Origin: Prochlorococcus marinus str. NATL2A
GTDB lineage: Bacteria; Cyanobacteriota; Cyanobacteriia; PCC-6307; Cyanobiaceae
NCBI RefSeq assembly: GCF_000012465.1
Contig: NC_007335.2
Span: 1,800,001 to 1,832,000 of the forward strand
Direction of reading: 5' to 3'
Length of the DNA stretch: 32,000 nucleotides
The stretch's first letter is position 1. Each line of letters starts with the position of its first letter. The notes beneath the pieces were generated by a model. The model had not been told where the DNA came from. It saw only the letters and a program-made list of their open reading frames with translations, and did no database searches. Both the position numbers and the translations under genes were made by a program. Shown in pieces: positions 3,582 to 12,020 of this stretch.

Positions 3582-4367
3582 CTATATAGGAATTGGAAAT
3601 GTCACTTCAGCTGGCTTTGGAGAGCAAGCTTCTACCTGAAAATCCACAACTGAACCTATTACAACAATCGCAGGAGACCTTAAATTTTCTTCTTGAACTC
3701 GGTCAAAAAGCTTTACCAAAGGGCTCTTAATATAACGTTGACCAATTACAGTCCCCTGCTCAATAACTGCCGCAGAAGTTTCAGGATTCATACCACCAGC
3801 AATCAACTCTGCTGAGATAAATTTTAAATTATGAACACCCATATATATAACGATTCCATCACTGGATTTCGCTAAAGACCGCCAATTTACAGCTGGGCGT
3901 TTTTTATCAATCCCCTCATGTCCAGTCACAAAAGTAACTGAAGATCCAGCAAGTCTATGAGTAATAGGTATCCCAACATAAGCAGGAGCAGCTATACCTG
4001 AAGTAACGCCAGGTACTACTTGTACTGGAACCCCTTTTTTATGAAGATAAGAAGCTTCTTCCGCACCTCTACCAAACAAAAATGGATCACCACCTTTTAA
4101 TCTAACAATACAAGAATAACTCTTTGATAAATCAAACAAAATATCATTCGTTGTCCTTTGAGGAACCGAGTGATGACCACGCCTCTTGCCTACTGAATGA
4201 AGTTGACAATTTGAAGAAACTAGTGCAAGTAGCTCTACAGGAACTAAAGAGTCGTATACAAGAGCATCACATTTACTAATTAGTTTTTGCGCTTTTACTG
4301 TTAATAAATCGGGATCACCAGGACCTGCTCCGACAAGATGCACAGTGCCAAACTGATTTGTATTCAT
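3582..4367 (-). CDS. cobA: uroporphyrinogen-III C-methyltransferase (SUMT, siroheme/corrin branch)
   Basis: 261 aa. N-terminal VHLVGAGPGDPDLLTVKA and later LKGGDPFLFGRG, PGVTS motifs of tetrapyrrole methylases. Its ATG (4367-4365) overlaps the TGA of the upstream ORF (ATGA). Confidence 0.9.
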   Translation of the reverse strand: MNTNQFGTVHLVGAGPGDPDLLTVKAQKLISKCDALVYDSLVPVELLALVSSNCQLHSVGKRRGHHSVPQRTTNDILFDLSKSYSCIVRLKGGDPFLFGRGAEEASYLHKKGVPVQVVPGVTSGIAAPAYVGIPITHRLAGSSVTFVTGHEGIDKKRPAVNWRSLAKSSDGIVIYMGVHNLKFISAELIAGGMNPETSAAVIEQGTVIGQRYIKSPLVKLFDRVQEENLRSPAIVVIGSVVDFQVEACSPKPAEVTFPIPI

Positions 4368-5257
4368 GGCAAGTTACCCAAAATATTAACAAGACCACAA
4401 TGAATAATATCAATCTCAAGCAAAGATTTAAGCTGCTCTCCTTTACTATCAATTTCTACATTTTTGTTTGGAGTCAAAAGATAGGGAATAGGAAGATAAT
4501 TCTTCTCCTTTTTATCGGTATCTTGATTCCATCTAGACCATGAATAAAGAGGAATATTTAGGAATTTTTCTAAGGACTTAAGAAAAACACTTGAAGTATC
4601 TGAAGAGACAGGGTGATGAATCAACGCAGGTTTAACAAAAGGACTCTGACTAGTTATCAGATCATCTATTAATGATAGCCATGGTATAAAAGAACCTAGG
4701 AAAGGAAACAATTTTATATTTTGTCCCTCTTCTTGCAAACGTTGAAATATTTTTGGTACATCACTACAAACATGACTTCCAGGTAACAAAAAAAGAGGAA
4801 CTAAAAACACTGATCTATTACCGATGTCAATTTGCTCTGGATTGTCATCAGTTAAAGCCTCTATTGAAACAGAGCGATTTTTAAGCCTCTTTAATTGGTC
4901 AACCAAAGAAAGAAGAGATGGATGTATCTCACCACCTCGAGAACCATGCACTAGTAAATGTAAATGGTGAGGAGGCTCACAATTAATTCTATTTGGTAAC
5001 AAAGACAACTTTTGATGGACATCTGAAGATGTATTAGTACTTTCAGCTAATTTATTAAAATTGAGATGATGAGAAATTCTAGATACTCGAGAACAAATAA
5101 TTTCAGGCGAGGAGAAGGGGTTGATCGAAGAAACACTCAATACAGAGGAAGAAAAAGATTCAAAAGTACTTTTCATCGAGACCTCTTTGCTATGAAAGAG
5201 GTTTGGGAAATGCTCAAAAGTGGAGCGATTAGAAGCCTCGGAGAAATTGGACGCCAA
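4364..5257 (-). CDS. CbiX/SirB-like sirohydrochlorin chelatase with long Ser-rich N-terminal region
   Basis: Motifs LLVHGSRGG and VFLVPLFLLPGSHVCSDVP match the CbiX/SirB class II chelatase signature. The ORF as drawn starts at TTG (5257). An internal ATG at 5176 (residue M28) is an alternative start. Translationally coupled to cobA. Confidence 0.6.
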   Translation of the reverse strand: MASNFSEASNRSTFEHFPNLFHSKEVSMKSTFESFSSSVLSVSSINPFSSPEIICSRVSRISHHLNFNKLAESTNTSSDVHQKLSLLPNRINCEPPHHLHLLVHGSRGGEIHPSLLSLVDQLKRLKNRSVSIEALTDDNPEQIDIGNRSVFLVPLFLLPGSHVCSDVPKIFQRLQEEGQNIKLFPFLGSFIPWLSLIDDLITSQSPFVKPALIHHPVSSDTSSVFLKSLEKFLNIPLYSWSRWNQDTDKKEKNYLPIPYLLTPNKNVEIDSKGEQLKSLLEIDIIHCGLVNILGNLP

Positions 5258-5410: not shown

Positions 5411-7072
5411 ATGGTTCAATACTATCTCGAAGGCAAAAAACTAAATCAAGTTGAAAAAAATAAAGCTGCTAAGGATGGACTCGAAATCGGAAAGGATATA
5501 GACAAATTTGCTGAAATGGGTTGGGAGCAAATGGATAAAACTGATTTAGAATTAAGATTGAAATGGTATGGGATGTTTTGGAGACCCAAAACCCCTGGAA
5601 AGTTTATGTTAAGGTTAAGAATACCTAATGGAATAATCAATGCAGAACAATTAAAAGTAATTGCATCAATTGTTGCGAGATATGGAGAGAATGGAAGTTG
5701 TGATATAACAACTAGACAAAATATACAACTTAGAGGTGTTTTAATTAGTGATTTGCCTGAGATATTAAATAGGTTAAAAAAAGTAAACATATCAACAACT
5801 CAATCTGGATTTGATAATCCAAGAAATGTTACTGGAAATCCCATCGCTGGAGTTGATCCAGAAGAGATTATAGACACAAGAATATATACATCAAAAATGC
5901 AAGATCATTTAACTAGCGATGGTAAAGGAAACTCAGAATTTTCAAATCTTCCAAGGAAATGGAACACAGCTATAGCAGGCTCTAAGGATAATTTTCTTTT
6001 ACATAATGATTTAATTTTTCATCCAGTTAAAATTAATGAGGTTTTAGGTTTTAGTGTTTGGATTGGAGGTGTACTTTCATCAGTAATGAATGAATATGCA
6101 GTTCCGTTGAATGCCTGGGTTGAAGAAGAAAAAATTTATGAATTAACATCAATTATTTTATCCCTCTGGAGAGATAATGGGGAACGTAATATAAGACCTA
6201 AAGGTAGGTTTAGATTTTATTTAGATAAAATTGGCATTGAAACATTTAGAAATCTTATCGAAAAACAATATGGAACATTAAAAGAAGATCCAGGGTCAAT
6301 ATTTTCAGATAAACCAAGGTCATTTTTTGGAATTCATTCTCAAAAACAAGAAGGTAAATATTTTGCAGGAATTCATGTGCCAGTAGGCCGTCTTTTGGCT
6401 GAAGATTTACAAGATCTAGCAAATATATGTGAGAATTTTGGTGATAAAGAAATAAGACTTACCGAAGATCAAAATATTATTATTACTGGTATAGATACAA
6501 ATCTAATTGAAGAATTTAAGGAGCAATCTATCTTACAAAAGTTTCCATTAGAACCAGAAACTATTGCAGCAGGTACTGTTTCTTGTACTGGAAATACCTA
6601 TTGTGGTTTCGCTCTAACAAATACAAAAGATCAAGCTTTAAAAGTCTCGCATGAATTAGACAAAGAATTAGATTTGAAAGACGAATTAAAGATTCATTGG
6701 ACTGGGTGTCCTAATAGTTGTGGTCAAGCCTATATGGGAGGAATTGGTTTAACGGGCAAAAAAGCTAAAGACAAAGAAGGAAAAACCGTTGAAGCTTATG
6801 ATATAAGCATTGGTGGATCACAAGGGCCTAATTATAAATTAGGAGAATTAATAAAAAAATCTGTCCCTCAAAATGAATTAAAAGATGTACTAAAAGATTT
6901 ACTTATTTCAGATTTTGATGCAAAAGAAAAAATATTTTTAAGTAAAAAATCTGGTTCATTAACTCGATTTATGAATTGGTTTAGTCCTCTTGGCAAAGAT
7001 AAACCGCTGATTAATCGAGCTAATGGCAGCCACGACATCTTTTCCAAATTTATGAATCGAATTAGTAATTAA
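5411..7072 (+). CDS. nirA: ferredoxin-nitrite reductase (siroheme/4Fe-4S)
   Basis: 553 aa. N-terminal KDGL...FA..GWE.....D...RLKWYGMFWRPKTPGKFMLRLRIPNG. Cluster-ligand cysteines in CTGNTYCGFA ... WTGCPNSCGQ. Has an extra C-terminal tail; see findings. Confidence 0.92.
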   Translation: MVQYYLEGKKLNQVEKNKAAKDGLEIGKDIDKFAEMGWEQMDKTDLELRLKWYGMFWRPKTPGKFMLRLRIPNGIINAEQLKVIASIVARYGENGSCDITTRQNIQLRGVLISDLPEILNRLKKVNISTTQSGFDNPRNVTGNPIAGVDPEEIIDTRIYTSKMQDHLTSDGKGNSEFSNLPRKWNTAIAGSKDNFLLHNDLIFHPVKINEVLGFSVWIGGVLSSVMNEYAVPLNAWVEEEKIYELTSIILSLWRDNGERNIRPKGRFRFYLDKIGIETFRNLIEKQYGTLKEDPGSIFSDKPRSFFGIHSQKQEGKYFAGIHVPVGRLLAEDLQDLANICENFGDKEIRLTEDQNIIITGIDTNLIEEFKEQSILQKFPLEPETIAAGTVSCTGNTYCGFALTNTKDQALKVSHELDKELDLKDELKIHWTGCPNSCGQAYMGGIGLTGKKAKDKEGKTVEAYDISIGGSQGPNYKLGELIKKSVPQNELKDVLKDLLISDFDAKEKIFLSKKSGSLTRFMNWFSPLGKDKPLINRANGSHDIFSKFMNRISN

Positions 7073-7369
7073 TTCGATTTTATAAAAAATTAGTTTTCTT
7101 ACTTTTTAAATTTATGACTCAAAGTACTTCTCAAATGAGCTACGTCTTACCTAAAGATTCTATTTCTCGTTTCATGAATTGGTTTAACAACCTTGGTAAA
7201 GATAAACCGCTGATTAATCGAGCTAATGGCAGCCACGACATCTTTTCCAAATTTATGAATCGAATTAGTAATTAATTCGATTTTATAAAAAATTAGTTTT
7301 CTTACTTTTTAAATTTATGACTTCAAGTGCCTCTCAAATGGACTACGTCCTACCAAATGAATTGGTAGA
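6964..7369. repeat. Tandem direct duplication, 2 x 203 bp, spanning the nirA 3' end, the intergenic spacer and the focA 5' end
   Basis: Position p aligns with p+203. The stretch 6995-7119 is identical to 7198-7322 (125/125). The left flank 6964-6994 has 8 mismatches in 31 nt and the right flank 7120-7164 has about 12 in 45 nt, counted by hand. Confidence 0.95.
7114..7275 (+). CDS. Small chimeric ORF (53 aa): FocA-like N-terminus + NirA C-terminal-tail-like sequence
   Basis: Not in the supplied ORF track. Hand translation of ATG 7114 to TAA 7273-7275 gives MTQSTSQMSYVLPKDSISRFMNWFNNLGKDKPLINRANGSHDIFSKFMNRISN. Residues 1-14 parallel the FocA start MTSSASQMDYVLPN. Residues 19-53 parallel the NirA end RFMNWFSPLGKDKPLINRANGSHDIFSKFMNRISN. 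It has the same upstream sequence as focA. Expression is unknown. Confidence 0.4.
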   Translation: MTQSTSQMSYVLPKDSISRFMNWFNNLGKDKPLINRANGSHDIFSKFMNRISN

Positions 7370-8228
7370 TGGAATGATTGCTGCAGGTGGCAAGAAATCA
7401 TCTGTAAGCGTAAAAAACTTGCTAATAAGAGGCTTCTATTCAGGAGCAATTTTAGGTTTAGCGACATGTCTTGCAATTACTATTGGTATTCAATCTGGGA
7501 TGCCTTGGTTAGGTTCTTTTATATTTCCTTTTGGTTTTGCAAGTATCGTTCTTTTCGGTATGGAGCTTGTTACTGGTAATTTTGCGTTACTACCAATGGC
7601 CGTATGGGCTGGAAAGAGTTCTTGGTCTGCAACTGTAAGGAATTGGCTATGGGTTTGGATCGGTAATTTTCTAGGTACAGCATTTGTTGCCGTACTACTT
7701 TCAATTAGTTTATCAAGTGCTGGAAATGTAGATCCATTAACTGCTGCTGAAGGTGGAAAAGGATGGGCAGTTGTAGCAGCAAAAATAATAGCTATACATA
7801 AAGCAAACACAGTTGTTAAATATGAAGCACTTGGAAGTACTGGTTTTTTCCTTGCATTTTTACGTGGAGTAATTGCAAACTGGCTGGTTTGTTTAGGTGT
7901 AACAATGGCACTTGTAAGTAAAAGTGTTCCAGGAAAGATACTTGCTTGCTGGCTACCTATAACTGCATTCCAAACAATGGGAATGGAGCACATAGTAGTT
8001 AATATGTTTTTGCATACAACTGGCCCTCTACTTGGTTCGGGTATTCCTTTTACAAAAGTAATTTTTTGGAATTTCTTACCAGTGACGATTGGAAATATTG
8101 TTGGAGGAATGGTATTTATTGGAATGCTTTTCTATAGCACCCACAAAACTCCTATCTCTAATGTTTTACCAGACGTAAAAGATGAAAAATTAGAACGAGA
8201 GCTCGAAGCACAACTTGGTGCAAGATAA
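7317..8228 (+). CDS. focA: formate/nitrite transporter family protein (nitrite channel)
   Basis: 303-aa polytopic membrane protein with FNT-family features (GMELVTGNF, ..VCLGV.., NIVGG). Lies immediately downstream of nirA, as in nitrite-assimilating marine picocyanobacteria. Confidence 0.88.
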   Translation: MTSSASQMDYVLPNELVDGMIAAGGKKSSVSVKNLLIRGFYSGAILGLATCLAITIGIQSGMPWLGSFIFPFGFASIVLFGMELVTGNFALLPMAVWAGKSSWSATVRNWLWVWIGNFLGTAFVAVLLSISLSSAGNVDPLTAAEGGKGWAVVAAKIIAIHKANTVVKYEALGSTGFFLAFLRGVIANWLVCLGVTMALVSKSVPGKILACWLPITAFQTMGMEHIVVNMFLHTTGPLLGSGIPFTKVIFWNFLPVTIGNIVGGMVFIGMLFYSTHKTPISNVLPDVKDEKLERELEAQLGAR

Positions 8229-8256
8229 AATTAAAAAAATTAAATTTTAAACTAAA

Positions 8257-8295
8257 TTAAGAAAGCCTAGAAAGTTGTATTCTAGGCTTTCTTAA
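8257..8295 (+). terminator. Strong hairpin downstream of focA (15-bp perfect stem, 9-nt loop)
   Basis: TTAAGAAAGCCTAGA (8257-8271), loop aagttgtat, then TCTAGGCTTTCTTAA (8281-8295), an exact reverse complement. It starts 29 nt after the focA stop. There is no clean U-tract after the 3' arm. Confidence 0.6.
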
Positions 8296-8446
8296 TATGT
8301 CTACTATTTAATAGTTATTAATAGGGTTTTAAAAGATTTTCCATTAATCTCTAAACAAATCAGATACTTGACTTGATCAATAAACAAATAGTAAATTAAA
8401 AAATTACTTTGATTAATTATTTTCTAATCCACTAAATTTAAATTCT

Positions 8447-9157
8447 ATGATTATTGAAGAAAGCAATATATGGGATACCATTAATAACGCGAAAAAAACC
8501 AAGCCAAGTGCTGAGTGGCTTAAGACTGCATACAATCCAAATATTAACTTTGAACTTAGACAAGAAATCGCTATTCGCTTGGGACAATTATCAAAAGTAG
8601 GATGGATAAAAATAAAAGATCTACTTAAGACGTATGGAAATAAAGATGAACTAATCCTTGCTGCAGGACTTACTTATCAAGATGATGCCAAAGAATGGCT
8701 CTTAAACCATCTCTATAGTGATGACACAATGAACATCAAAGTCGTAGAAGCTTTGGCTTGCTGGGGAGGAACCTTACCGATTGAGCTTATTAAAAAAACA
8801 TTAGAAGAAAAAAGTGCGCAAATGAAAATAGCTGGTTTAGAATTATTAAAATTCAAAGCTCATTTACTTTCTGATTTTGATTTACTTGAGATAGCAAAAT
8901 CTCCTTTAAATGATTTCAGAGAAGAGATAGTGATCAAAACACTGACAATAATTCAAAGACGTGAAAGCTTAGATATCTGTGAAGCCATCAGCGATGTAAT
9001 ACAAAAAGGCTCGGATAAATCTGCGTACTATGGACTAATGGCTCTTGGTTCAATCGGTACTAAAATTAGTAAAAATATCCTATTAGATTTAGTTAAAAAT
9101 TTAAAGAATACTGAGCGCAAAGAACTTGCAAAAAAACAACTTAACTTTGAAATATAA
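8447..9157 (+). CDS. HEAT/armadillo-like helical repeat protein, function unknown
   Basis: 236-aa all-helical-looking protein with recurring roughly 30-aa leucine-rich segments resembling PBS-lyase-type HEAT repeats (e.g. ...VVEALACWGG..., ...AYYGLMALGSIG...). A 6-nt gap separates it from the next ORF. Confidence 0.5.
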   Translation: MIIEESNIWDTINNAKKTKPSAEWLKTAYNPNINFELRQEIAIRLGQLSKVGWIKIKDLLKTYGNKDELILAAGLTYQDDAKEWLLNHLYSDDTMNIKVVEALACWGGTLPIELIKKTLEEKSAQMKIAGLELLKFKAHLLSDFDLLEIAKSPLNDFREEIVIKTLTIIQRRESLDICEAISDVIQKGSDKSAYYGLMALGSIGTKISKNILLDLVKNLKNTERKELAKKQLNFEI

Positions 9158-10775: not shown

Positions 10776-12020
10776 TTGAGAAGGCTAAAAATTCCCACCC
10801 TTTTAGGAGCTTTCATCACACTTCTAGATGATCGATTAGGCGAAACCATTGTTTTACCTTTATTACCTTTTTTATTAGAACAATTCACGACAAGCGCGAC
10901 GACTCTTGGTTTTTTAACTGGAACTTATGCGATATCTCAGTTTGCTGCAGCCCCACTAATTGGAGCTATGAGTGATCGTTTCGGTCGTAAGCCAATCATG
11001 ATCACATGTGTATCTGGTTCAGTAATAGGAATATGTCTATTTGCATTAACTGTAAGCCTGAATTGGGATAATTATTTACCTTTATGGGCCTCAACTTTAC
11101 CTTTATCTTTACTATTTTTAGCCAGAATAATTGATGGTATCAGTGGCGGTACTGCAGCTACTGCTACTACAATACTTGCAGACATATCAACTCCCGAAAA
11201 TCGCGCAAAAACCTTTGGATTAATTGGAGTAGCGTTTGGTTTGGGTTTTATTCTTGGGCCAGGATTAGGAACAGCTCTTGCTAAATTTAGTGTCACTTTA
11301 CCGGTATGGGTCGCAAGCGGATTTGCAATATTTAATCTTATTTTTGTAATTTTCTTTTTACCGGAAACACTGCCCAAAAACAAAAGAAATTTATTACCAA
11401 GAAAAAGAGATTTGAATCCAATCAGTCAGCTCTTGATTGTATTCAAAAACCCCTTAGCTAGAAGACTTTGCTTATCATTTTTTGTTTTCTTTATGGCATT
11501 TAATGGCTTTACAGCTGTTTTAGTCCTTTATTTAAAAGAAAAATTTGGATGGAGTCCTGAATTATGTAGTGCTGCTTTTATTGTCGTTGGAGTTATCGCG
11601 ATGATTGTTCAAGGAGGCCTAATTGGTCCTCTTGTAAAAAGATTTGGGGAGTCGAGATTAACTTTTGCTGGTATTGGCTTTGTAATGACAGGATGTATTC
11701 TTTTAACTCTCGCAAATATAGATACGTCAATTCCTCTTGTATTTTCTGGCGTCGCAATACTTGCAATGGGAACTGGACTAGTAACTCCTAGTTTAAGAGC
11801 ACTAATTTCAAGAAGACTAAGTTCTATTGGTCAAGGAGCAGTATTGGGAAATCTGCAGGGTTTACAAAGTCTGGGAACTTTTCTTGGAGCAATAGCAGCA
11901 GGACGCTCATATGATCTTTTGGGTCCAAGAAGTCCATTCTTTGGCACAATATTGCTTCTAATATTTGTTATGTTTTTAATTTCAGGGAAAAGTCTTACCA
12001 AGCAAAAAGTAATCTCCTAG
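10776..12020 (+). CDS. MFS transporter (DHA1/TetA-like efflux family)
   Basis: 414 aa with about 12 hydrophobic segments. MFS motif A is GAMSDRFGRKP, and the N-terminal LDD.LGETIVLPLLPF is typical of TetA-like proteins. Starts at TTG, with no upstream in-frame ATG. Confidence 0.75.
   Translation: MRRLKIPTLLGAFITLLDDRLGETIVLPLLPFLLEQFTTSATTLGFLTGTYAISQFAAAPLIGAMSDRFGRKPIMITCVSGSVIGICLFALTVSLNWDNYLPLWASTLPLSLLFLARIIDGISGGTAATATTILADISTPENRAKTFGLIGVAFGLGFILGPGLGTALAKFSVTLPVWVASGFAIFNLIFVIFFLPETLPKNKRNLLPRKRDLNPISQLLIVFKNPLARRLCLSFFVFFMAFNGFTAVLVLYLKEKFGWSPELCSAAFIVVGVIAMIVQGGLIGPLVKRFGESRLTFAGIGFVMTGCILLTLANIDTSIPLVFSGVAILAMGTGLVTPSLRALISRRLSSIGQGAVLGNLQGLQSLGTFLGAIAAGRSYDLLGPRSPFFGTILLLIFVMFLISGKSLTKQKVIS

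What the first reader, a model, noticed from the sequence alone, without database searches (positions are those of the whole stretch)
7114..7275. Untracked 53-codon chimeric ORF: FocA N-terminus fused in frame to the NirA C-terminal tail
The duplication creates an intact ATG-to-TAA ORF that does not appear in the supplied ORF track. Its first roughly 16 residues (MTQSTSQMSYVLPKDS) are a diverged copy of the FocA start (MTSSASQMDYVLPNEL). The rest (RFMNWFNNLGKDKPLINRANGSHDIFSKFMNRISN) copies the NirA tail, and its last 29 residues are identical to it. Because 203 is not a multiple of 3, the junction had to land in frame without stops. The ORF inherits the same 41-nt upstream sequence as focA, so it has the same chance of being translated. 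The differences in the flanks include both synonymous and non-synonymous changes. As an inference, a free-standing copy of the NirA tail could mimic, compete with or regulate whatever the tail binds. Alternatively, it could be a decaying by-product.
Basis: partly seen in the sequence, partly recalled or inferred. Interest (0 to 1): 0.75.

Follow-up and report, generated by a model that had tools for sequence, protein, structure and literature searches.

The report
Rebuilt small nitrite-operon protein gene
The 53-codon ORF is real, and it is the local version of a conserved but uncharacterised small protein encoded between the nitrite reductase and nitrite channel genes of marine picocyanobacteria; in this Prochlorococcus lineage the protein was first fused to the reductase and then recreated as a separate gene by a 203-bp tandem duplication.

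Summary
ORF 7114-7275 (+, 53 aa) lies at the junction of two 203-bp tandem units (6955-7157 and 7158-7360; 182/203 identical, with a 125-nt perfect core). Its first ~15 codons and 41-nt leader come from focA, and the rest from the nirA 3' end.

The "NirA tail" is itself a captured gene. A free 40-55 aa helix-linker-helix protein sits just upstream of focA in 72 of 80 picocyanobacterial loci. Only this Prochlorococcus clade (most likely LLI) carries the whole domain on NirA.

The inferred order is:
- fusion to nirA;
- a single duplication that rebuilt a free copy;
- gene conversion between the copies;
- repeated loss or gain, leaving 1-3 copies.

The WH7803 orthologue (RS12335) is published as co-transcribed with nirA and nitM and induced about 200-fold under N limitation. 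Its function is unknown. It is not NirP1.

The family is under purifying selection. In four lineages the free copy matches the family profile better than the fused copy does.

Mechanism is inferred, not shown. I propose an amphipathic two-helix adaptor or regulator linking NirA and FocA. AF2 leaves the tail undocked, and orphan copies and a probable phage copy also exist.

Verdict: a new variant of a known but uncharacterised family, of moderate-to-high interest.

The parts
5411..6954 (+). nirA catalytic core (ferredoxin-nitrite reductase, residues 1-515)
   Evidence: NCBIfam NF007125 at 874 bits over residues 2-507, and Pfam NIR_SIR and NIR_SIR_ferr. The AF2 core is confident.
6955..7157 (+). 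Tandem unit 1: NirA C-terminal sORF-derived tail (residues 516-553, stop at 7070-7072), 41-nt spacer, and the first 44 nt of the small ORF
   Evidence: Repeat tools, exact comparison, and an HMM hit of the sORF family on the NirA tail, 66-69 bits.
7158..7360 (+). Tandem unit 2: body of the small ORF, 41-nt spacer, and the first 44 nt of focA
   Evidence: The junction was mapped with L107.
7114..7275 (+). Free-standing small ORF, 53 aa, with helix 1 (about residues 13-29), a linker, and helix 2 (about residues 41-52). It is a member of the conserved nirA-focA small-protein family.
   Evidence: ORF. HMM 72.8 bits against a profile built only from sequences outside this clade. AF2 helices H13-29 and H41-52. 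Homologues.
7073..7113 (+). 41-nt leader of the small ORF, identical to the focA leader
7276..7316 (+). 41-nt focA leader (second copy)
7049..7086 (+). AU-rich hairpin spanning the nirA stop codon (copy 1)
   Evidence: RNA fold -11.6 kcal/mol, z = -2.8. Inverted repeat I1. No significant fold in the corresponding region of the two relatives folded, one marine Synechococcus (L081) and LLIV strain MIT 0707 (L044).
7252..7289 (+). Identical hairpin spanning the small-ORF stop codon (copy 2)
7317..8228 (+). focA / nitM nitrite channel (303 aa)
   Evidence: ORF. Form_Nir_trans Pfam on orthologues. 145 relatives in genome contigs.
8447..9157 (+). Probable nirX (HEAT/armadillo-like protein), third gene of the published nitrite cassette
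   Evidence: Position and length match the HEAT_2 (weak) gene downstream of focA. Cyanorak describes nirX as 'Armadillo-like helical-containing protein'. No Pfam hit on the window protein itself.
4364..5257 (-). cbiX-like sirohydrochlorin chelatase gene, divergent from nirA
   Evidence: Pfam CbiX.
3582..4367 (-). cobA-type uroporphyrinogen methyltransferase gene (siroheme branch)
   Evidence: Pfam TP_methylase.

Best explanation
The 53-aa ORF is a genuine, probably expressed member of a small-protein family (40-55 aa, two amphipathic helices joined by a Gly/Pro-rich linker). The motifs are D-x-F-S-R-F-V-N-W and D-F-F-S-K/R-L-M-N-R-I-S. Marine picocyanobacteria encode this protein between nirA and focA, inside the nirA-sORF-focA transcript. 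History in this Prochlorococcus clade (most likely LLI): (1) NirA already carried a helix-1-like C-terminal motif (FMNWF type). Recombination between that motif and helix 1 of the downstream sORF deleted the nirA stop codon and fused the sORF to NirA. (2) A single 203-bp tandem duplication, spanning the fused tail, the spacer and the first 44 nt of focA, rebuilt a free-standing copy that uses focA's leader and start codon. (3) Gene conversion keeps the two copies nearly identical, and unequal recombination gives 1, 2 or 3 copies in nature. Proposed mechanism (inferred, not shown): the two helices are docking elements that tie nitrite reductase functionally to the FocA nitrite channel, acting as an adaptor or regulator. 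The element can work in trans (most lineages), in cis as a flexible NirA tail (single-copy relatives), or both (this window). My confidence is about 0.85 for identity and history, about 0.65 that the free copy is itself functional, and about 0.35 for the NirA-FocA coupling mechanism. The overall figure given is a blend of these.
For: Family and position: a free sORF domain ends 12-61 nt upstream of focA in 72/80 FocA-selected loci plus the window, and in about 69/80 sORF-selected metagenome loci with nirA upstream. There are 239 clusters at 90% identity, all 41-78 aa among the 120 listed, with no Pfam domain, and only 46 representatives among 1.84 billion proteins. Selection: family-wide median dN/dS is about 0.3, and 1762/2145 pairs are saturated at synonymous sites. 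Within the clade, the free copy in L107 versus the window has dN 0.081 and dS 1.07, against 0.133 and 1.19 for the NirA tail. Fusion at helix 1: 32 of 41 NirA tails outside this clade that carry an NW motif read FMNWF, whereas only 2 of 158 free sORFs do, and most of the latter read F/L-V-NW. Both copies in this clade are FMNWF followed by an sORF-type linker and helix 2. Order of events: the basal NirA lineage P0200/L109 and the lineage P0198/L110 are fused and single-copy. The window and P0199/L192/L107 lineages have two copies that share the same junction. Concerted evolution: 22 genome-concordant variable sites and no site fixed between copies. The 202-nt period is shared by both spacers in L100-L106. 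Independent constraint on the free copy: in 4/4 lineages it scores higher than its fused paralogue against a profile built from outside this clade (78.6 vs 66.3, 72.8 vs 68.9, 70.9 vs 69.6, 70.1 vs 65.5). In L192 it reads NDFFSRFVNWF, the family consensus, while the fused copy reads YSMSRFMNWF. Met1 is retained in all relatives, and Met8 is lost in P0001. Expression of the orthologue: WH7803 RS12335 is up 194-239 fold without ammonium, is co-transcribed with nirA and nitM, and has two predicted helices (PMC9430850). Link to NirA: natural fusions, plus helix-1-only or helix-2-only NirA tails in other clades. Link to FocA: constant adjacency. The one nirA cassette without focA that I examined (low-GC, possibly high-light type, L111) has no sORF and no NirA tail. 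Structure: helices H13-29 and H41-52, hydrophobic moment about 0.6, and a NirA tail 510-553 that is flexible and undocked.
Against: There is no protein-level or ribosome evidence for this ORF or for any family member, only mRNA data from one Synechococcus. Both halves of the ORF are repaired by gene conversion from selected genes (the nirA tail and the focA start), so an open frame is weak evidence of selection. Closely related genomes lack the free copy (L005, L008, L010, L012, L113, L114), so it is dispensable when the fused copy exists. A three-copy contig has a frameshifted third copy. AF2 gives no confident contact between the tail and the NirA core (pLDDT 26-38). Nine metagenome loci carry orphan copies far from nirA and focA, and a probable cyanophage carries one, so the target need not be NirA or FocA. 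The 'absent when focA is absent' rule rests on one locus type. The 4/4 profile-score comparison has little statistical weight (one-sided sign test 0.06), and the dN/dS values come from 38 codons.
Confidence: 0.6

Rival explanations
1. Passive by-product. The ORF is a junction artefact of a neutral tandem duplication. It stays open only because gene conversion keeps copying selected sequence into it from the nirA tail and the focA start. The function resides in the NirA-fused copy alone.
For: Concerted evolution is strong: 22 genome-concordant sites and no site fixed between copies. Single-copy genomes occur among close relatives. There is a three-copy contig with a frameshift. The focA-derived N-terminal residues vary freely among relatives.
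Against: The two-copy state persists in lineages separated by dS of about 1, although direct repeats are easy to lose. The free copy has lower dN than the fused copy. It matches the profile built from outside this clade better in 4/4 lineages. In L192 it has become the family consensus exactly where it differs from the fused copy. Everywhere else the family works as a free protein.
Confidence: 0.25
2. A real peptide with a different target. The two helices bind something other than NirA or FocA, for example the HEAT/armadillo protein NirX of the same cassette, ferredoxin, or the membrane surface. The NirA fusion simply delivers NirA to that partner.
For: The AF2 tail does not dock on NirA. The helices are amphipathic with low mean hydrophobicity. 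nirX is a constant cassette member. Orphan copies and a probable phage copy act away from nirA and focA.
Against: The low-GC cassette that keeps nirA and nirX but lacks focA also lacks the sORF and the NirA tail. That argues against NirX or ferredoxin alone as the partner. No direct test was possible.
Confidence: 0.2
3. RNA-level feature. What matters is the duplicated hairpin plus focA leader (an attenuator, processing site or extra translation-initiation region tuning focA expression), and the ORF is incidental.
For: An identical AU-rich hairpin spans both stop codons (-11.6 kcal/mol, z = -2.8). The WH7803 paper reports different time courses for nirA and the sORF and suggests RNA processing.
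Against: No significant fold in the corresponding region of the two relatives folded, one marine Synechococcus (L081) and LLIV strain MIT 0707 (L044). No Rfam match in the window. Conservation across the family is at the amino-acid level with saturated synonymous sites.
Confidence: 0.05

Closest known systems
SynWH7803_RS12335, the 135-bp / 44-aa ORF between nirA and nitM (focA) of Synechococcus WH7803 (Dominguez-Martin et al. 2022, PMC9430850)
   Same: Same family by sequence profile, same position between nirA and focA, and the same two predicted helices. The authors had already noted similarity to NirA of Prochlorococcus NATL2A, which is the fused tail.
   Different: The window copy has a focA-derived N-terminus and leader and a NirA-type helix 1 (FMNWF). 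It coexists with a second copy fused to NirA and evolves in concert with it. The paper proposed that the ORF evolved from nitrite reductase. My data indicate the reverse for this clade: the small protein was captured by NirA.
NirP1, the NirA-interacting small protein of Synechocystis 6803 (Kraus et al. 2024, PMC10907346)
   Same: A small cyanobacterial protein tied to nitrite reductase and N regulation, and a plausible functional analogue. The paper states that no NirP1 homologue exists in Prochlorococcus, where nitrite release occurs.
   Different: NirP1 is 76-86 aa with an invariant Cys and three Trp, and it is encoded away from nirA. The present family is 40-55 aa with one Trp and no conserved Cys, has no detectable sequence relationship to NirP1, and lies inside the nirA-focA operon.
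FocA-PflB coupling in E. coli, where an enzyme docks on the cytoplasmic N-terminal domain of an FNT channel (from my own knowledge, not checked here)
   Same: It shows the concept that an FNT-family channel is gated or coupled by direct contact with the enzyme that handles its substrate. The picocyanobacterial FocA N-terminus (SQMDYVLPNELVD) is nearly invariant across the 80 loci, apart from N-to-S in three freshwater-type loci.
   Different: There is no small adaptor in E. coli, the substrate and enzyme differ, and no interaction has been tested here.
Rosetta-stone fusions, and chimeric genes created at tandem-duplication junctions
   Same: A free protein in most genomes is fused to its neighbour's product in one clade. 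A new ORF is formed at the junction of a head-to-tail duplication spanning a gene boundary, with concerted evolution and copy-number change.
   Different: Here the junction ORF does not create a new combination of functions. It restores the ancestral free-standing gene with a borrowed start.

Membership tests
nirA-focA small-protein family (RS12335-like) | Sequence: 40-55 aa with both motifs (DxFSRFxNW... and D.FS[KR].MN[RK]IS at the C-terminus), alignable without gaps | tested here: met
   72.8 bits against an HMM built only from members outside this clade, 79 bits against the full profile, and a gap-free alignment over the last 39 columns.
nirA-focA small-protein family (RS12335-like) | Position: same strand, downstream of nirA, with the stop codon a few tens of nt upstream of focA | tested here: met
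   The stop codon is 41 nt before the focA ATG. The family range is 12-61 nt in 72 loci.
nirA-focA small-protein family (RS12335-like) | Two alpha-helices separated by a flexible linker | tested here: met
   AF2 gives H13-29 and H41-52 at moderate confidence (pLDDT 65). PSIPRED on the WH7803 orthologue gives two helices.
nirA-focA small-protein family (RS12335-like) | Co-transcribed with nirA and focA and induced when ammonium is absent | not testable with these tools
   Shown only for WH7803 by RT-PCR and qRT-PCR. No expression data are available for this genome.
NirP1 | 76-86 aa, with an absolutely conserved Cys and three conserved Trp in the last ~50 residues | tested here: not met
   The ORF is 53 aa with one Trp and no Cys. 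The family consensus has one Trp. NirP1 criteria come from PMC10907346.
NirP1 | Physical interaction with NirA | not testable with these tools
   Only indirect evidence: natural fusion to NirA. AF2 shows no intramolecular docking.
Ferredoxin-nitrite reductase (the GenBank/PGAP name of this ORF) | NIR_SIR and NIR_SIR_ferr domains with siroheme/4Fe-4S binding residues | tested here: not met
   No Pfam family and no significant NCBIfam hit on the peptide (best E 0.066, CspE, far below its cut-off), whereas NirA itself scores 874 bits. The name is transferred from similarity to the fused tail.
Junction ORF of a tandem duplication | Two head-to-tail units, with the ORF spanning the unit boundary and each half homologous to a different flanking gene | tested here: met
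   Units 6955-7157 and 7158-7360. The junction is at codon 15. The same junction occurs in all two-copy relatives.

The most novel reading that the evidence does not exclude
The peptide, and the NirA tail derived from it, is the missing adaptor that docks nitrite reductase onto the FocA nitrite channel. It would form a channel-enzyme unit that decides whether nitrite is reduced, retained or released. Copy state (free, fused or both) would tune nitrite cycling in these low-light Prochlorococcus populations at the primary nitrite maximum. Cyanophages would carry their own copy to manipulate this step. On this reading it is the picocyanobacterial functional counterpart of NirP1.
Probability: 0.25. 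Interest if true: 0.8.

Novelty: new variant of a known kind. Interest (0 to 1): 0.6.

Why it matters
Nitrite handling by these low-light Prochlorococcus populations shapes the ocean's primary nitrite maximum. The published regulator of cyanobacterial nitrite reductase, NirP1, is explicitly absent from Prochlorococcus.

This family is a candidate for that missing layer. It is conserved, N-induced and operon-embedded. Nature has fused it to NirA, which is the strongest genomic hint of a functional partnership.

The one-, two- and three-copy natural variants and the fused-only lineages provide ready-made genetic contrasts. Strains can be compared for nitrite uptake and release without genetic engineering.

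The locus is also a clean example of a gene lost by fusion and then rebuilt by a junction ORF with a borrowed start codon and kept in step by gene conversion. Finally, it exposes a systematic misannotation: 44-57 aa peptides named "ferredoxin--nitrite reductase".

Tried and rejected
- **Pfam, NCBIfam and PADLOC on the peptide:** no meaningful hit.
- **PDB profile search:** only chance hits with E >= 0.008, to haemagglutinin.
- **Rfam on the whole window:** nothing.
- **nirX as the name of this ORF:** rejected. Cyanorak describes nirX as an armadillo-like helical protein, which fits the 236-aa gene downstream of focA.
- **NirP1 homology:** rejected on length and on Cys/Trp content.
- **Literature search for the peptide motifs as strings:** no paper. 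A whole-word search for nirX returned only unrelated papers, almost all on near-infrared spectroscopy.
- **AF2 of NirA with its tail, hoping for a docking site:** the tail is disordered (pLDDT 26-38). This does not support intramolecular binding, but only about five tail-bearing sequences were in the alignment.
- **Promoter and terminator consensus scan:** nothing in the spacers.
- **tblastn of the viral homologue against cultured phage genomes:** no match. Only psbA of the viral contig resembles P-SSP10.
- **P0142 context:** the contig was too short to be informative.
- **P0164, P0135, P0154 and P0165 from the representative search:** P0164, once read, is an unrelated repetitive protein. The other three were set aside on their multi-stretch partial matches alone.
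- **'KD' before helix 1 as convergent restoration of the family's Asp:** I considered this, but NirA tails of sister lineages also have D or S-I-S there. I therefore claim only that the D codon is a junction hybrid.

Full report
**Observation**

The window carries nirA (5411-7072, 553 aa), a 53-codon ATG-to-TAA ORF (7114-7275) and focA (7317-8228), all on the + strand. Two repeat finders report a head-to-tail repeat of period 203.

Comparing the exact units 6955-7157 and 7158-7360 gives 182/203 identities. The perfect core is 125 nt (6995-7119 = 7198-7322), and all 21 mismatches lie in the two edges. The 41-nt spacer before the small ORF is identical to the spacer before focA.

The first 15 residues match FocA at 10 positions. 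The last 27 residues, not 29, are identical to NirA. The description is therefore correct apart from that count.

The ORF is not universally untracked. GenBank lists it from the internal Met8 as a 46-aa "ferredoxin--nitrite reductase" in Prochlorococcus sp. MIT 0801 and XMU1403. One relative has lost Met8 (P0001), which argues that Met1, the focA-derived start, is the real one.

**What the tail really is**

I fetched 80 loci by FocA from one genome per species and read the region upstream of focA. This showed a free-standing small ORF ending in ...FFSKLMNRIS(G/N). It sits just before focA in many Prochlorococcus lineages, including LLIV strain MIT 0707, and in marine Synechococcus including RCC307.

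A profile search of six-frame translations finds this domain, ending 12-61 nt upstream of focA, in 72 of the 80 loci and in the window. It is missing in the six loci where nirA is not adjacent, in one locus truncated upstream, and in L065, where nirA is adjacent.

In most marine Synechococcus, NirA stops at ...FGAKPKA with no tail. In several Prochlorococcus lineages NirA ends with a helix-1-like motif only (...DFFSRFMNWFSELGESS). In a few lineages it ends with a helix-2 motif only. Only the window's clade, most likely LLI, carries the whole two-helix domain on NirA.

The family has these properties:
- 239 clusters at 90% identity, all 41-78 aa among the 120 listed.
- No Pfam or NCBIfam model.
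- Named either "hypothetical protein" or, wrongly, "ferredoxin--nitrite reductase".
- Only 46 representatives among 1.84 billion proteins.
- A constant context of cobA, cbiX-like, nirA, sORF, focA and a HEAT-like gene. The HEAT-like gene is the published nirX.

**Prior knowledge**

Dominguez-Martin et al. 2022 (PMC9430850) described the WH7803 member, RS12335. It is 135 bp and 44 aa, lies between nirA and nitM (= focA), and has two predicted helices. It is up 194-239 fold without ammonium and is co-transcribed with nirA and nitM. They noted its similarity to NirA of NATL2A and CB0101. Its function is unknown.

NirP1, the known NirA-binding small protein, is 76-86 aa with an invariant Cys and three Trp. 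It is reported absent from Prochlorococcus. The present family does not meet those criteria. No paper prints the motif strings.

**History in this Prochlorococcus clade (most likely LLI)**

Helix 1 reads FMNWF in 32 of 41 NirA tails outside this clade. In free sORFs it reads F/L-V-NW in about 137 of 158 and FMNWF in only 2 of 158. Both copies in this clade have the NirA-type FMNWF followed by an sORF-type linker and helix 2. This is the signature expected if recombination between the NirA helix-1 motif and the sORF helix 1 fused the two genes.

A neighbour-joining tree of the NirA core places a fused, single-copy lineage (P0200/L109) at the base. The window lineage and the P0199/L192/L107 lineage both have two copies. 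A single-copy lineage (P0198/L110) is sister to the window.

All two-copy genomes share the same junction, LP(K/N)D|S-I-S or LPND|FFS. The simplest order is fusion first, then one duplication, then repeated loss.

The copy-number states observed are:
- **One copy:** close relatives of two-copy genomes (L005, L008, L010, L012, L113, L114).
- **Three copies:** one metagenome contig, with a 1-nt frameshift in the third copy (L108).

Recombination among these genomes could blur this tree, so the order is an inference.

**Concerted evolution**

In an alignment of both units from 15 genomes, 22 variable sites are shared by the two copies within a genome but differ between genomes. No site is a fixed difference between copies.

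The window-specific His codon is present in both copies. A lineage with a 40-nt spacer has it in both spacers, giving period 202. The SP and NN variants of helix 1 swap between copies. This explains the perfect 125-nt core with diverged edges.

**Is the free copy under its own selection?**

The family as a whole is constrained. Median pairwise dN/dS is about 0.3 among unsaturated pairs, and most pairs are saturated at synonymous sites while still aligning without gaps.

Within this clade the test is confounded, because conversion from the selected nirA tail and focA start can keep the frame open. Four observations nevertheless favour independent constraint:
- The two-copy state persists across lineages separated by dS of about 1, even though direct repeats are easily lost.
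- dN of the free copy is lower than that of the fused copy: 0.081 vs 0.133 and 0.099 vs 0.156.
- In four of four lineages the free copy scores higher than its fused paralogue against a profile built only from outside this clade.
- In L192 the free copy reads NDFFSRFVNWF, the family consensus, exactly where the fused copy reads YSMSRFMNWF. The remaining 30 codons are identical.

The samples are small: 38 codons and four lineages.

**Mechanism**

AF2 predicts two helices (13-29 and 41-52) with a flexible linker at moderate confidence. Both helices are amphipathic, with a hydrophobic moment of about 0.6.

AF2 of the full NirA gives a confident core. The tail 510-553 has pLDDT 26-38 and no contact with the core. 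I read this as a flexible tether presenting docking helices to a partner, not a self-inhibitory lid. The alignment held only about five tail-bearing sequences, so this negative result is weak.

A link to NirA is suggested by the natural fusions, which suffice in several lineages that have no free copy. A link to FocA is suggested by constant adjacency and co-transcription. In addition, the one cassette lacking focA that I could read (low GC, possibly high-light type; nirA followed 2 nt later by nirX) has neither the sORF nor a NirA tail.

I therefore commit, at about 0.35, to an adaptor or regulator coupling NirA to the FocA channel. This is analogous in concept to PflB docking on E. coli FocA, which I recall from my own knowledge and did not check. 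All steps beyond sequence, position and fusion are inference.

**Complications**

A search of metagenome contigs by the sORF profile found about 69 of 80 loci with the nirA-sORF-focA arrangement. It also found nine loci, in three sequence groups, with a 40-aa copy starting MD(F/L)FS in unrelated cellular contexts:
- between purU and tig;
- next to a 4Fe-4S membrane protein;
- next to FemAB-like and MAPEG genes.

Two viral contigs from IMG/VR carry a 48-aa homologue 1.6 kb downstream of psbA, among genes that hit only phage families of unknown function. No cultured phage has it.

These copies show that the peptide can act away from nirA and focA. They keep open other partners such as NirX, ferredoxin or the membrane.

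**RNA alternatives**

An identical AU-rich hairpin spans both stop codons (-11.6 kcal/mol, z = -2.8). The corresponding region shows no significant fold in the two relatives I folded, one marine Synechococcus (L081) and LLIV strain MIT 0707 (L044). Rfam finds nothing in the window, and the consensus scans find nothing in the spacers. Conservation is at the protein level.

**Verdict**

The ORF is the lineage-specific, rebuilt version of a conserved, N-induced, uncharacterised small protein of the nitrite operon. I file it as a new variant of a known but uncharacterised family, with interest 0.6.

Noticed in passing
L098 4977-5123 (+), identical in L099 (IMG/VR UViGs 3300025118_000016 and 3300037634_005704): There is a 48-aa homologue of the small protein (MNSIKPSNDLFSRFVNWFSNSGSDYILADSKVGGKDFFSRLMNRISTM). 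It lies on 57-81 kb viral contigs, 1.6 kb downstream of psbA, among ORFs that hit PHROGs of unknown function. No nirA or focA is nearby. It may be a cyanophage auxiliary gene. No cultured phage carries it.
   Followed up: partly
L137 2483-2617 (also L138, L139, L141); L164 2360-2617 (also L166, L167); L189 110-391 (also L191): Three groups of orphan 40-aa family members start at MD(F/L)FS and sit in cellular contexts unrelated to nirA/focA. The contexts are purU...tig, a 4Fe-4S membrane protein, and FemAB-like/MAPEG genes, with GC 0.36-0.46. The host organisms were not identified.
   Followed up: partly
L108 1235-1700: A metagenome contig carries three tandem copies: the NirA tail, an intact 53-aa ORF, and a third copy with a 1-nt deletion (47 aa, frameshifted). 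This is either real decay of an extra copy or a sequencing error.
   Followed up: partly
NirA C-termini in L027, L044, L045, L048, L052, L053 (helix 1 only) and L058, L070, P0295, P0305 (helix 2 only): Many NirA proteins outside this clade end with just one of the two motifs of the small protein. This suggests repeated exchange between the 3' end of nirA and the downstream small gene.
   Followed up: partly
L111 365-2246: In a low-GC (32%) cassette, possibly high-light type, NirA (515 aa, no tail) is followed after 2 nt by nirX, with no focA and no small ORF. This is the only cassette lacking focA that I could examine.
   Followed up: partly
window 7049-7086 and 7252-7289: An AU-rich 16-17 bp hairpin spans the stop codon of nirA and, identically, that of the small ORF, followed by UUUUAUAAAAAAUU. 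No significant fold in the corresponding region of the two relatives folded, one marine Synechococcus (L081) and LLIV strain MIT 0707 (L044). Its role (weak terminator, processing site or recombination hotspot) is unknown.
   Followed up: partly
window 8256-8296: A strong 17-bp palindromic terminator-like hairpin lies between focA (ends 8228) and the nirX-like gene (starts 8447). It may end the nirA-sORF-focA transcript.
   Followed up: no
window 1-32000: The window has no narB or napA, so this is a nitrite-only genotype. The gene order is queE-like, queC, pabB, pabC-like, cobA, cbiX-like, nirA, sORF, focA, nirX-like, trpD-like (cnaT-type), an MFS transporter (10776-12020) and ppk, followed further downstream by a sigma factor, acnB and dnaK. 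The presence of ppk fits the published pyrG-ppk location of the LLI cluster.
   Followed up: partly
public annotations of P0004, P0013, P0029, P0060, P0062, P0068, P0083, P0109, P0118: Peptides of 41-57 aa in this family are widely named 'ferredoxin--nitrite reductase' in NCBI and UniProt records. The name is evidently transferred from the NirA tail of this clade. One such record is labelled Gammaproteobacteria, probably a binning error.
   Followed up: no
window 6868-7047 (-) and 7140-7250 (-): Antisense ORFs of 59 and 36 aa mirror each other because they lie in the duplicated segment. Nothing suggests they are genes.
   Followed up: no
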